Assembly: GCF_006345805.1 (NCBI RefSeq)
Contig: NC_043007.1
Span: 29,698,001-29,762,000 of the forward strand
Length of the DNA: 64,000 nucleotides
Origin: Octopus sinensis
Taxonomy: Eukaryota
Reading direction: 5' to 3'
In this document: piece after piece, positions 59,819 to 62,273 of the stretch
How the letters are laid out: each line of letters opens with the position of its first letter
Numbering within the stretch: the first letter of the stretch is position 1
Position numbers: made by a program

Positions 59819-62273
59819 TATTATATTATATATATATATAATGTGAAATAGAAAGATGAATAATCTTGTAGTAGATTAATCAAAAGTTTAACCGATACCT
59901 TGGTAGCAAAATACACAGCAGTAAACAGCGCGGTTGGAGGTACAACCATATGGTGTTGCAACCGTGCGTTGGTGCGGATAATTGAAATTAAAATATTATT
60001 GGTGAATTGGAGAGAATGGAGCTGAACGCAGATTGAACAGAAATCGTTTTATTTCATTCTACACGTGTTTCGAAAGGCACAATTTACCAAAATCCGATTG
60101 AATAATGGGACCATATTGTGTCTTTCTCTTCAGGAAGAAATAGGAAATCGTTGGAAAAACAAAAACAGAACAGAGGCGGAGCAAAAACAAATCGAACTAG
60201 GCTCCTAAGAGCCCATGGCGAAACTGTTTATCAGTGTATGTTGAGAACCGGTGGCTGAAGAATTTAACGGGTCAGGCATCGGTCAATCATGTGGGTGAGG
60301 GTGTGTAGATGTTCTTTGTGACCGAGAATAAAGTTCTGACTATTTAAGGAATATTGGATGTTTTATAAGGGGCGAGAAAAAATCTACTTAGAGACGTGTG
60401 TGTGTATACTGTTCTATATATGTGTGCTGCCCTATCACCTTTTTCCGGAGGCACAGCCTCTTCCGCTCCCGGTTTAATGCTCAGTAGGAATAATTATAGT
60501 AGTAATAATGATATGAGAGCCAGTACAGTGACACATAATCTCAGCTCCAGCCAGGGAGTACCCACTAGGGGTATAGTTATAAATAGGGGTGTTGTGGTTG
60601 ACGGTAACAATGGGAGTAGGGTAGAGAGCCCCAATAGCATCCCCAGCATCATTTCCCGCAATAGCAGCACCACGGTCACTAGCAATGACAGCACTCTGAT
60701 AGATAGTGGAGAATCAGGGGTTATTCCTATAGTTAATAGTGACGTAGTGGAAAATAGAGTAGTAAGCGGCTGCAGGTCTCGGAACGAATATAGTGACAGG
60801 AACGCAGTTCTAATTTCAGAAATTAATCCTAGCAGAATAAGATTCACGTCGGCGAACTCCAAGATCAAAAACGCCGTCTACCAATGCAAGGTTTACACGG
60901 ACTCAGATGTCTTCACTTATGTAGGGGCCTCATCCTCAAGATTGTCTTTGCGAGTCTCCAACCATTACGCAACTTTTCGGGACATGAACAAGCGCCAGAG
61001 CACGGGACTCAGTAAGCTAATATGGCGACTGAAGCATACGAACTTAAGCTACAGGCTGGAATGGTCAATTTTGTCGGTGGCCCTCCCATTTGATAGGGGC
61101 AGAAGGCAGTGCAACCTTTGTGTCTCCGAACTCTTCCATATTTTGTTTGCCAGAGGCCGGATGGTAAACGGGCTTTTACAGTCGGCTTTTCGATGCCCCC
61201 ATTGGCGGCGTTACACTTATCTGGCTTTTAAATAGCGTTTATAAATAATACCGGCACCCATAGCCCTTGGTAACAAATTCTGAAATAGCCTTTAAGATAT
61301 CTACGATTAACCACTGCAAGGGGAATTACTCCTGTAAGATAAACGGGGCTTGGTTTTTTCACAACGGGGGGTTTCCTTGACAAGGCAGGCTTAGATGAAC
61401 ACACACACACATAAAACATAATATATATATATATTTTTTTTTTCTGCCACCCAACGGTTCTCACTGCAGTAGCCACTGACAGCCGAACGATCAAACGCAC
61501 ACACGTACACAAAAAATGTTTTCTACCCCTACGCCAGCACACATATATAGAACAGTATACACACACACGTCTCTAAGTAGATTTTTTCTCGCCCCTTATA
61601 AAACATCCAATATTCCTTAAATAGTCAGAACTTTATTCTCGGTCACAAAGAACATCTACACACCCTCACCCACATGATTGACCGATGCCTGACCCGTTAA
61701 ATTCTTCAGCCACCGGTTTCAAACATACACTGATAAACAGTTTCGCCATGGGCTCTTAGGAGCCTAGTTCGATTTGTTTTTGCTCCGCCTCTGTTCTGTT
61801 TTTGTTTTTTCCAACGGATTTCCTATTTCTTCCTGAAGAGAAAGACACAATATGGTCCCATTATTCAATCGGATTTTGGTAAATTGTGCCTTTCGAAACA
61901 CGTGTAGAATGAAATAAAACGATTTCTGTTCAATCTGCGTTCAGCTACATTTCTTCAATTCACCAATAATATTATATATATATATATATATAGTTAATCC
62001 AAACAAGAAAGCACAAAAAAAACACAACAACGCGAGGACGTGGAACAAATAAAGTATTATTGGACGCTCAGGAAAGAAGGAAAGAAGGAGGGTTTAACAT
62101 TTCGAGCGGAGCTCTTCGTCGGAAACATAGGAGAAGGAAAGATCCAGAGAAGTGAAGACAGAGGGAAAAAAATCGCCAGCGGTACACACGCGGTTACATT
62201 TTGAATGACCGGAAGGAATATATATATATAATATATATATATATAAAATTTATATACTATATGTATATATATA

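What the first reader, a model, noticed from the sequence alone, without database searches (positions are those of the whole stretch)
59842..61973. Ribozyme-capped, endonuclease-only Penelope-like element (GIY-YIG with no RT) between 438-bp inverted repeats
Seen: (TA)n, a left inverted repeat, an intact 272-codon ORF, ~300 nt of UTR, a right inverted repeat, then (TA)n. Each repeat has a canonical hammerhead. The C-terminal ~120 aa keep the GIY-YIG catalytic pattern (AVY..YVG, R, H, E, N) plus CxxC..CxH. Known: Penelope-like elements (PLEs) normally fuse RT to GIY-YIG and carry HHRs in pseudo-LTRs that can be inverted. Unusual: the ~150 aa upstream of the nuclease are S/N/V/G-rich low-complexity sequence, not an RT thumb or Cys linker, so this does not look like a plain 5' truncation. 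Inference: a distinct nuclease-only element, possibly half of a split RT/EN system or a helper that cuts TA tracts for the HHR mini-elements nearby.
Basis: partly seen in the sequence, partly recalled or inferred. Interest (0 to 1): 0.88.

Follow-up and report, generated by a model that had tools for sequence, protein, structure and literature searches.

The report
Truncated Hydra-type Penelope retrotransposon copy
This is most likely an ordinary broken copy of a known kind of jumping gene (a Penelope-like retrotransposon of the "Hydra" type) that lost its front half, not a new nuclease-only element.

Summary
There are two about 438-nt inverted repeats (59992-60429 and 61535-61973; 2 mismatches and 5 one-base indels), a 271-codon ORF (60420-61235), a 299-nt unique UTR and (TA)n flanks. 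Each arm carries a hammerhead-like motif. Rfam missed these, but a structural descriptor finds only these two sites in the 64 kb.

The C-terminal about 120 aa belong to a very large family (2286 cluster representatives) with the pattern GIY..YIG, R, H, CxxC, E, N, CxH. That pattern, the hammerhead and the (TA)n context match the published Hydra clade of C-terminal-EN Penelope-like elements (Craig et al. 2021).

The "endonuclease-only element" reading is not supported:
- The frame is already open inside the left arm, and the ATG lies in that arm.
- The closest relative (P0001) continues upstream into a conserved pre-EN block. In longer relatives (P0018, P0014) that block follows RT-like motifs.
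- An inverted 5'-truncated copy next to another copy is a documented PLE insertion structure.

The one mildly new point is the linker. This sublineage has a disordered N/S-rich stretch where the clade's CxCX5C linker normally sits.

I could not search any eukaryotic genome, so RT upstream in the same subfamily is inferred, not shown.

The parts
59769..59840 (.). Left (TA)n-rich microsatellite
   Evidence: Runs of (TA)5 or more at 59769-59778, 59779-59810, 59812-59821 and 59827-59840; sequence read.
59842..59991 (.). Unique 150-nt stretch between the left (TA)n and the left arm. Origin unknown: a long 3' 'tail' of the inverted copy, or target DNA.
   Evidence: Matches nothing else in the window. 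No Rfam match at E<=10. The minus strand folds better than shuffles (z -2.67; 3 of 200 shuffles fold as well).
59992..60429 (-). Left arm: the inverted 3'-terminal 438 nt of the element (an inverted, strongly 5'-truncated copy; pseudo-LTR)
   Evidence: 436 aligned positions, 2 mismatches and 5 one-nt indels against 61973-61535.
60050..60142 (-). Hammerhead-type motif of the left arm (helix I 5' strand to helix I 3' strand)
   Evidence: Descriptor hit 60133-60050 (-), with the same sequence as the right-arm motif. The MFE fold recovers helix II. No Rfam match.
60430..61973 (+). Main copy, 5'-truncated: rest of the ORF, unique 3' UTR and 3'-terminal pseudo-LTR
   Evidence: The unique sequence starts at the arm junction and the frame is open from 60369.
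60420..61235 (+). ORF of 271 codons plus stop. The ATG and first 3 codons lie inside the left arm.
   Evidence: The chance of such an open frame in the window is about 2e-4.
60420..60854 (+). aa 1-145: S/N/V/G-rich linker, predicted disordered, with no CxCX5C motif
   Evidence: pLDDT about 45-55 and no secondary structure. Collinear with the N-terminus of P0002 beyond composition (score 85; 0 of 500 shuffles reach it). No significant match to the standard pre-EN linker HMM (E 0.3-0.5).
60867..61217 (+). aa 150-266: GIY-YIG-type endonuclease domain of the Hydra-clade kind (Y154, Y167-x-G169, R178, H182, C231-x2-C234, E237, N250, C259-x-H261)
   Evidence: phmmer found 2286 representatives at E<=1e-3 and 270 at E<=1e-10, nearly all matching aa about 145-270. 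tblastn placed P0018 and others at 60867-61217. Conserved columns. pLDDT above 90. Top Foldseek hits are T4 EndoII and Hpy188I at E 0.05. 15 of 121 relatives hit Pfam GIY-YIG.
61236..61534 (+). Unique part of the 3' UTR (299 nt)
   Evidence: self-match only.
61535..61973 (+). Right arm: 3'-terminal 439 nt of the main copy (pseudo-LTR)
61824..61916 (+). Hammerhead-type motif, sense to the ORF. Helix I 61824-61832 / 61907-61916; CUGAAGA 61833-61839; helix II 61840-61851 / 61883-61894; GAAA 61895-61898; helix III C61899-G61904 with A61898-U61905; loop ACGU 61900-61903. The predicted cleavage is after A61906.
   Evidence: Descriptor hit; coordinates read; helix II recovered by the MFE fold; no Rfam match.
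61973..61992 (.). Right (TA)10, directly abutting the right arm

Best explanation
The locus is a dead, 5'-truncated insertion of a Penelope-like retrotransposon (PLE) of the Hydra clade.

Structure: it consists of two copies joined head to head. A short inverted copy keeps only the last about 438 nt of the element (left arm, possibly with a further 150 nt of 3' extension). A longer copy keeps the last about 1.54 kb (60430-61973). That is the C-terminal part of the single RT-EN ORF (a diverged linker plus an apparently intact GIY-YIG-type endonuclease), the 3' UTR, and the pseudo-LTR with its hammerhead motif. The 'intact 272-codon ORF' is therefore the tail of a longer ORF. It stays open into the antisense of the inverted copy and picks up an ATG there by accident.

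Mechanism (inferred from what is published for PLEs, not shown here):
- The element's EN nicks a (TA)n tract.
- The RT primes on the nick and copies the RNA from its 3' region.
- Incomplete copying gives the 5' truncation.
- Resolution of the intermediate produces the inverted partner.
- The hammerhead, with a 2-bp helix III and a palindromic loop, is of the type thought to act only as a dimer in tandem transcripts. Here the two motifs lie on opposite strands, so this locus probably does not self-cleave efficiently.

The copy cannot move by itself because it has no RT. The near-identity of the arms and the open frame reflect youth, not selection.

The sublineage (window ORF, P0001-P0004, P0019, P0021, P0079) differs from described Hydra elements. 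A long N/S-rich disordered linker stands where the CxCX5C motif should be.
For: Shown:
- Inverted arms of about 438 nt with 2 mismatches and 5 one-nt indels.
- The frame opens at 60369, inside the left arm, and the ATG at 60420 is in the arm.
- EN family: 2286 representatives at E<=1e-3. Of the 150 listed, 56 carry CxCx5-7C upstream, 8 carry the pre-EN block and 2 carry YxDD.
- P0018 starts with an A-D-K-T motif and has YRDD, then the thumb-like FLD / SNHP block, the pre-EN block, CxCX5C and the same EN.
- The feature search (Atlas) puts P0018 aa 1-370 next to HTH_animal / RVT_1 clusters (score 0.97, 205 shared features).
- P0001 is the closest relative (59% identical over 85 aa). Its aa 5-85 match the pre-EN linker HMM at E=3e-6, and it aligns with P0041 in one segment, 8-208 against 133-294, E=5e-11.
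- P0131 combines an N/S-rich linker with a retained CxCX5C, so it looks intermediate.
- All columns conserved at 90% or more are present in the window EN, and the EN is modelled at pLDDT above 90 with a beta-beta-alpha-alpha-beta-alpha order.
- The top five Foldseek rows are chains of T4 EndoII and Hpy188I (E 0.05-0.11). In the P0018 model the EN part matches the I-TevI catalytic domain (TMt 0.60-0.66, E 0.9-2).
- 15 of 121 relatives hit Pfam GIY-YIG, best 7.6e-6.
- The hammerhead descriptor hits only the two arms in 64 kb, against 1 of 200 random windows with any hit.

Published:
- Craig et al. 2021 (PMC8557442, section 11 read in full) describe Hydra-clade PLEs. [quoted passage not shown] Nearly all families sit in (TA)n. 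Hosts include Mollusca.
- The same paper (passages) says PLE insertions are highly 5'-truncated and often have an inverted 5'-truncated copy next to them, forming flanking inverted repeats, with a 'tail' at one end.
- Cervera & de la Pena 2014 (passages): metazoan type-I HHRs have a 1-2 bp helix III capped by a 2-4 nt palindromic loop, PLE HHRs have a larger helix II, and G10.1-C11.1 is conserved. All three hold here.
Against: - No RT-bearing protein with this N/S-rich linker was found. Three word-indexed protein searches returned nothing, and no eukaryotic genome collection was available.
- The window ORF's own N-terminal 150 aa do not match the standard pre-EN linker HMM (E 0.3-0.5) or the N-terminus of P0001 (130 of 500 shuffles reach the score).
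- P0002 begins within about 8 residues of the window ORF's start. This could mean a shared 5' boundary rather than random truncation.
- The RT nature of the upstream part of P0018 and P0014 rests on motifs I read and on the Atlas lead. Pfam finds no RVT_1 in them, PDB sequence searches find nothing, and the P0018 model is poor (pLDDT 60), with only weak HIV-1 RT rows (E 0.3 or more, prob 0.14 or less).
- Rfam hammerhead models do not match.
- The clade's CxCX5C linker is absent from this copy.
- The left arm is 150 nt away from the left (TA)n.
Confidence: 0.84

Rival explanations
1. One reading: a distinct nuclease-only PLE derivative that propagates as IR-ORF-IR. It would supply (TA)n-nicking activity in trans, as half of a split RT/EN system or as a helper for small hammerhead-bearing elements.
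For: - The EN keeps every conserved residue and the ORF is intact.
- The linker differs from the clade's Cys linker and is conserved beyond composition with P0002 (0 of 500 shuffles).
- P0002 starts within about 8 residues of the window ORF's start.
- Most family hits are short proteins, 120-300 aa.
- No long form of this subfamily was retrieved.
Against: - The start codon and the first 61 nt of the open frame lie in the antisense of the element's own 3' UTR.
- P0001 extends upstream into the pre-EN block that follows RT-like motifs in long forms.
- Short database proteins are what gene callers would give on 5'-truncated copies.
- Arms at about 98% identity mean the frame could be open simply because the copy is young.
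- The nearby 227-nt mini-elements share no sequence with the arms and have no canonical hammerhead by the descriptor.
- There is only one copy in the window.
Confidence: 0.08
2. A DNA transposon with about 438-nt terminal inverted repeats that uses the GIY-YIG nuclease as its transposase.
For: Long, nearly identical terminal inverted repeats flank a single nuclease ORF.
Against: - The arms carry a PLE-type hammerhead motif.
- The nuclease family has long forms with RT-like motifs.
- The ORF starts inside an arm.
- No target-site duplication can be read at the arm ends, where the left flank is unique sequence and the right flank is (TA)n.
- Inverted pseudo-LTRs are documented for PLEs.
Confidence: 0.03
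3. A host gene domesticated from a PLE endonuclease.
For: An intact ORF with all conserved EN residues.
Against: - It is a single exon embedded between its own pseudo-LTRs with hammerhead motifs.
- It sits in microsatellite- and TE-rich DNA.
- The start codon lies in the inverted arm.
- The arms are about 98% identical, so the insertion is recent.
Confidence: 0.02
4. The inverted arrangement is an assembly artefact (a fold-back chimera) around a single 5'-truncated copy.
For: Craig et al. 2021 (passage) note that such PLE structures cause assembly problems. The 5 differences that are one-nt indels could be read errors.
Against: The arms also differ by 2 substitutions. The left arm continues into 150 nt that the right arm lacks. 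The junction is not a perfect palindrome centre, because 1105 nt of unique sequence lies between the arms.
Confidence: 0.03

Closest known systems
Hydra clade of C-terminal-EN Penelope-like elements (Craig, Yushenova, Rodriguez & Arkhipova 2021, PMC8557442)
   Same: - A GIY-YIG-type EN at the C-terminal end of the ORF, without the CCHH motif.
[quoted passage not shown]
- A hammerhead motif in the pseudo-LTR.
- (TA)n at the insertion.
- 5' truncation with an inverted partner copy.
- Relatives with A-D-K-T and YxDD motifs upstream.
   Different: - This copy has no RT because it is truncated.
- The CxCX5C linker is replaced by a disordered N/S-rich stretch of about 145 aa. Only a G-C-R-S-R-N remnant aligns to it in one MAFFT alignment.
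- The left arm is 150 nt away from (TA)n.
- The hammerhead has an unusually long helix II (12 positions, 31-nt loop) and is missed by Rfam.
Canonical PLEs (Penelope/Poseidon, Neptune, Nematis)
   Same: Pseudo-LTRs that may be inverted, a hammerhead in the pseudo-LTR, a C-terminal GIY-YIG EN, frequent 5' truncation and a 'tail' at one end.
   Different: Their EN has the CCHH motif, and in Neptune and Nematis a CX2-5CxxC linker. The window EN has neither.
Naiad / Chlamys PLEs (N-terminal EN)
   Same: A GIY-YIG EN, a microsatellite insertion bias and complex tandem or inverted insertions (abstract).
   Different: Their EN is N-terminal and followed by RT, and they lack canonical hammerheads. Here the ORF stops right after the EN and a hammerhead motif is present.
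Metazoan type-I hammerhead ribozymes of PLEs (Cervera & de la Pena 2014, PMC4209133)
   Same: The CUGANGA / GAAA core, the G10.1-C11.1 pair, a 2-bp helix III with a 4-nt palindromic loop, a large helix II, and a location in both flanking repeats (passages).
   Different: Helix II is longer than the 6-8 bp reported. No Rfam model matches. Activity is untested.
Stand-alone GIY-YIG nucleases (T4 EndoII, Hpy188I, I-TevI catalytic domain)
   Same: Best structural matches of the modelled EN domain, and the same order of catalytic-type residues.
   Different: The matches are weak (E 0.05 or more, 10-19% identity). Those enzymes are phage or bacterial proteins with no retroelement context.

Membership tests
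Penelope-like elements, Hydra clade | [quoted passage not shown] | tested here: met
   C231-x2-C234, E237, N250 and C259-x-H261, with the stop 10 codons later. The definition comes from Craig 2021 section 11.
Penelope-like elements, Hydra clade | Linker with CxCX5C upstream of GIY-YIG | tested here: not met
   Absent from the window ORF and from P0001-P0004. Present in 56 of the 150 listed relatives. The window copy is therefore a variant sublineage and does not fit the published description fully.
Penelope-like elements, Hydra clade | PLE-type RT (DKT motif, divergent RT4) in the same ORF upstream of the EN | tested here: not met
   There is no RT in this copy or elsewhere in the window for this family (tblastn of 10 relatives hit only the EN locus). 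This is expected for a 5'-truncated copy. Relatives P0018 and P0014 carry A-D-K-T and YxDD. Membership is as a defective copy, by homology of the EN and by the pseudo-LTR structure.
Penelope-like elements, Hydra clade | Canonical hammerhead motif in the pseudo-LTR | tested here: inconclusive
   The core and three helices are found by descriptor in both arms only. Rfam models are silent. No covariation test is possible because the two copies are identical.
Penelope-like elements, Hydra clade | Insertion into (TA)n | tested here: inconclusive
   The right arm abuts (TA)10. The left arm is separated from (TA)n by 150 unique nt. (TA)n is common throughout this region.
Penelope-like elements (general) | Pseudo-LTRs, direct or inverted, formed by an adjacent 5'-truncated copy | tested here: met
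   The arms are the 3'-terminal about 438 nt in inverted orientation. This matches the structure in Craig 2021 (passages).
GIY-YIG nuclease superfamily | Match to the family profile (Pfam PF01541) | tested here: not met
   The window ORF gives no Pfam hit at E<=10. 15 of 121 aligned relatives hit it at E<=0.01, best 7.6e-6, so the link is transitive.
GIY-YIG nuclease superfamily | Conserved Tyr, Tyr-x-Gly, Arg, His, Glu and Asn in order | tested here: met
   Y154, Y167-V-G169, R178, H182, E237 and N250. Their assignment as the catalytic set is recalled from I-TevI and UvrC work, not tested.
GIY-YIG nuclease superfamily | GIY-YIG fold | tested here: inconclusive
   aa 150-255 are modelled at pLDDT above 90. 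The top PDB rows are T4 EndoII (E 0.05, prob 0.87, TMt 0.46) and Hpy188I, but none reaches E<=0.001. That these two are GIY-YIG enzymes is recalled.
GIY-YIG nuclease superfamily | Nuclease activity | not testable with these tools
   Needs a bench assay.
Hammerhead ribozyme, type I | Self-cleavage | not testable with these tools
   Needs in vitro transcription of monomeric and dimeric constructs.
TIR DNA transposons | Target-site duplication and a transposase between the TIRs | tested here: not met
   No duplication can be read at the arm ends. The ORF's family has RT-like long forms.

The most novel reading that the evidence does not exclude
Its ORF would start at the arm junction in many copies, and it would supply (TA)n nicking in trans.

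A weaker but likelier novelty is that a Hydra-clade sublineage lost the CxCX5C linker, replaced it with a long disordered N/S-rich linker, and still lands beside (TA)n. That would separate the Cys linker from (TA)n targeting. I put this weaker reading at about 0.4.
Probability: 0.08. Interest if true: 0.7.

Novelty: new member of a known kind. Interest (0 to 1): 0.2.

Why it matters
As a truncated copy of a described PLE clade it matters little by itself. It shows how a 5'-truncated retroelement butted against its own inverted copy can pass for an intact small gene between 'terminal inverted repeats'.

The modest point of interest is the linker. Craig et al. 2021 link the Cys-rich linker to (TA)n targeting. 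This sublineage lacks it, has a conserved Cys-less segment and a disordered N/S-rich stretch instead, and the copy still abuts (TA)n. If full-length active members exist, they would be a natural test of what directs PLE endonucleases to microsatellites.

Tried and rejected
RNA searches:
- Rfam at gathering score over the whole window gave 0 matches.
- Rfam at E<=10 over 58800-63000 gave 48 matches. None was a hammerhead. They were mostly microRNA models hitting microsatellites, which I take as chance.
- The simple pattern CTGANGA-N4-30-GAAA gave 11 matches, none in the element. The gap limit was too short for this helix II.

Protein searches:
- Pfam on the window ORF found nothing at E<=10.
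- The ORF against PDB sequences gave only rhinovirus-type VP1 rows over the low-complexity part (E 0.035-0.074), which I take as compositional.
- The profile of 121 relatives against PDB found nothing, and P0018 against PDB found nothing.
- Pfam on P0018, P0014, P0041 and P0057 found no RT at E<=10.
- The AF2 model of P0018 was poor (pLDDT 60). Its fold search gave nothing at E<=0.001, only weak HIV-1 RT, viral RdRp, I-TevI and UvrC rows. This does not settle the RT question.
- The three word-indexed searches (window ORF near and longer, P0001 longer) all came back empty. These are weak negatives, as the tool itself says.

Ideas dropped:
- The idea that window aa 4-8 are the end of the pre-EN block is not supported. 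The window N-terminus against P0001 is no better than shuffles (279 of 500 and 130 of 500 reach the score).
- The bacterial promoter/terminator scan is irrelevant to a eukaryotic element, and I ignore it.
- The mini-elements are not hammerhead elements helped by this nuclease. They share no sequence with the arm, and the descriptor finds no hit in them.

Unchecked:
- The source organism.
- Any eukaryotic genome or transcriptome.
- The supplements of Craig et al. 2021 (fig. S2, S7 and S8, files S1 and S2). They may already list mollusc Hydra families, their hammerheads and their linkers.

None listed a paper on a nuclease-only PLE. I did not read beyond the listings for most of them, so I make no claim that it is not in print.
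Full report
**1. The observation**

- Two inverted arms, 59992-60429 and 61973-61535, align over 436 positions with 2 mismatches and 5 one-base indels. blastn gives 98% over 440-443 nt and finds no further copy in the 64-kb window.
- Between the arms lie 1105 unique bases. They hold an ORF of 271 codons plus stop (60420-61235) and a 299-nt untranslated stretch (61236-61534).
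- An open frame of this length is not expected by chance in this AT-rich window (about 2e-4), so it is real coding sequence.
- The right arm abuts (TA)10 (61973-61992).
- The left arm does not abut the left (TA)n (59769-59840).

**2. The hammerhead**

No Rfam family matches in the element, either at gathering score or at E<=10. My first simple pattern also missed it.

Read directly, the right arm on the + strand carries these parts:
- helix I 5' strand (61824-61832)
- CUGAAGA (61833-61839)
- a 12-position helix II with one A.C mismatch and a 31-nt loop (61840-61894)
- GAAA (61895-61898)
- a 2-bp helix III closed by the palindromic loop ACGU
- A at position 17
- helix I 3' strand (61907-61916, one bulge)

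The left arm has the identical motif on the - strand. A descriptor script asked for the core and all three helices. It finds exactly these two sites in the window, and only 1 of 200 first-order Markov random windows gave any hit. I wrote the descriptor after seeing the motif. The MFE folds recover helix II.

The 1-2 bp helix III with a small palindromic loop, the G10.1-C11.1 pair and a large helix II are the features reported for metazoan and PLE hammerheads. Those ribozymes are thought to act as dimers (Cervera & de la Pena 2014, passages). Its activity is untested, and no covariation test is possible with two identical copies.

**3. The protein**

Pfam and PDB sequence searches say nothing useful about the ORF. 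The exhaustive phmmer search does.
- It found 2286 cluster representatives at E<=1e-3 and 270 at E<=1e-10.
- Nearly all match only query residues about 145-270.
- Most are short proteins of 120-300 aa.

In an alignment of 121 members, the columns conserved at 90% or more are Y167, G169, R178, H182, T195, L197, S198, W202, L204, W215, C231, L233, C234, E237, I241 and N250. The window ORF has every one of them, and also Y154 and C259-x-H261.

The GIY-YIG assignment rests on several weaker lines:
- 15 of the 121 members hit Pfam GIY-YIG (best 7.6e-6). The window ORF itself does not.
- With this alignment, AlphaFold2 models residues about 150-255 at pLDDT above 90. Residues 1-130 stay at about 45-55 with no secondary structure.
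- The best PDB fold matches are T4 endonuclease II and Hpy188I (E 0.05-0.11). I recall both as GIY-YIG enzymes. None reaches E<=0.001.
- The Atlas feature search of residues 140-271 lands on 'GIY-YIG catalytic domain-containing' clusters (0.96).

The nuclease call is therefore reasonable, but it is transitive.

**4. What family**

The longer members show what lies upstream of this nuclease. P0018 (658 aa) has these elements in order:
- it begins with an A-D-K-T motif
- a D-containing block
- YRDD
- an FLD...SNHP block
- a conserved pre-EN block
- C-x-C-x5-C
- the same nuclease

P0014 (524 aa) has YRDD and everything after it. P0041, P0057, P0058, P0072, P0109 and P0112 start within or after the FLD / SNHP block. 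Of the 150 listed hits, 56 have CxCx5-7C, 8 have the pre-EN block and 2 have YxDD. The Atlas places P0018 residues 1-370 beside clusters that carry HTH_animal and RVT_1 (0.97, 205 shared features).

Other tools do not confirm RT. Pfam finds no RVT_1, PDB searches are empty, and the P0018 model is poor, with only weak HIV-1 RT and I-TevI rows.

The decisive comparison is with the literature. Craig et al. 2021 (section 11 read in full) define the Hydra clade of PLEs by these traits:
- short elements
- a C-terminal GIY-YIG EN without the CCHH motif
- a CxCX5C linker
- DKT in place of DKG
- a very divergent RT4
- canonical hammerheads
- insertion into (TA)n in almost all families
- hosts that include Mollusca

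**5. Why not nuclease-only**

- The stop-to-stop frame opens at 60369, 61 nt inside the left arm. The ATG at 60420 is also in the arm. The arm is the antisense of the element's own 3' UTR, so the start is accidental, and the real coding sequence begins exactly at the junction. A truncated ORF would look like this.
- The closest relative, P0001 (59% identity over 85 residues), has its own N/S-rich stretch. Upstream of it sits a block that matches an HMM of the pre-EN linker of eight longer forms at E=3e-6. It also aligns with P0041 in a single segment.
- P0131 has an N/S-rich linker and still keeps CxCX5C, so it looks intermediate.
- Craig et al. state that PLE insertions are highly 5'-truncated. 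[quoted passage not shown] Frangieh et al. 2024 relate the tail to two internal RT start sites (passages).
- With the arms so similar, the insertion is young, so an open frame needs no selection.

**6. What argues the other way**

- I found no protein that joins RT to this N/S-rich linker (searches were empty).
- The window's own N-terminal 150 residues do not match the standard linker HMM (E 0.3-0.5) or the N-terminus of P0001.
- They do align with P0002 beyond composition (0 of 500 shuffles). P0002 starts within about 8 residues of the window ORF's start. That could be chance, or a gene caller's first ATG, or a shared boundary.

I put the truncated-copy reading at 0.84 and the nuclease-only reading at 0.08.

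**7. Mechanism**

The steps below are inferred from published PLE biology, not shown here.
- The EN nicks (TA)n.
- The RT primes at the nick and copies from an internal 3' site.
- Incomplete synthesis truncates the 5' end.
- Resolution of the intermediate yields the inverted partner.

The two hammerhead motifs lie on opposite strands, and each has only a 2-bp helix III. Dimer-type cleavage within one transcript of this locus is therefore unlikely. A read-through transcript would fold into a hairpin of about 438 bp. This copy lacks RT and cannot move on its own.

**8. Novelty**

This is a new member, as a defective copy, of a known kind. The one departure is the linker. In the window ORF, P0001-P0004, P0019, P0021 and P0079, the Cys motif is gone and a segment just before the first Tyr is conserved without cysteines. 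Craig et al. tie the linker to (TA)n targeting, so a Cys-less lineage that still sits at (TA)n would be worth a look. One copy with one clean (TA)n flank does not establish that.

**9. Limits**

- No call identified the organism.
- The supplements of Craig et al. 2021, which hold the Hydra consensus sequences and their hammerheads, were closed.
- What I saw of each paper: Craig 2021, abstract and outline, sections 11 and 12, and passages. Cervera 2014, passages. Frangieh 2024, passages. Li et al. 2026 preprint, abstract and outline only. The Octopus vulgaris repeat paper, passages. These passages show only that PLE families are annotated in an octopus genome, not which clades.

Noticed in passing
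window 61990-62216; 1045-1231; 59039-59158: A 227-nt dispersed mini-element. One copy is 94% identical and another is partial, and each is bordered by (TA)n or (GTAT)n. It shares no sequence with the PLE arm and has no canonical hammerhead by my descriptor. It may be a SINE-like passenger of some (TA)n-targeting retroelement.
   Followed up: partly
window 1326-1568 / 1572-1814: A 243-nt near-perfect palindrome (99%, 3 nt between the arms) beside a long (TA)n. Each arm holds CTGATGA-N24-GAAA, but the descriptor finds no helix II. It may be another head-to-head pair of truncated element ends.
   Followed up: partly
window 59842-59991: A unique 150-nt stretch between the left (TA)n and the left arm. 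Its minus strand folds better than shuffles (z -2.67). It could be an unusually long PLE 'tail' or target DNA.
   Followed up: partly
window 16367-17401 (-) and 8871-9272 (-): Reverse-transcriptase fragments (Pfam RVT_1, E 1.3e-14 and 0.004). They are unrelated to the Hydra-type EN locus.
   Followed up: partly
window 14638-15114 (-): An open frame that reads by eye like a Cys-rich EN remnant of a canonical PLE. Pfam is silent, so this is unverified.
   Followed up: partly
protein P0131: A 175-aa family member that combines an N/S-rich linker with a retained CxCX5C motif. It looks like an intermediate between the standard Hydra linker and the Cys-less sublineage.
   Followed up: no
window 58900-59700, 62220-63000 and many other places: Dense (TA)n, (GTAT)n and (CA)n microsatellites. 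They draw many sub-threshold microRNA-model hits in Rfam (mir-297, mir-466, mir-1277), which I take as compositional artefacts.
   Followed up: no
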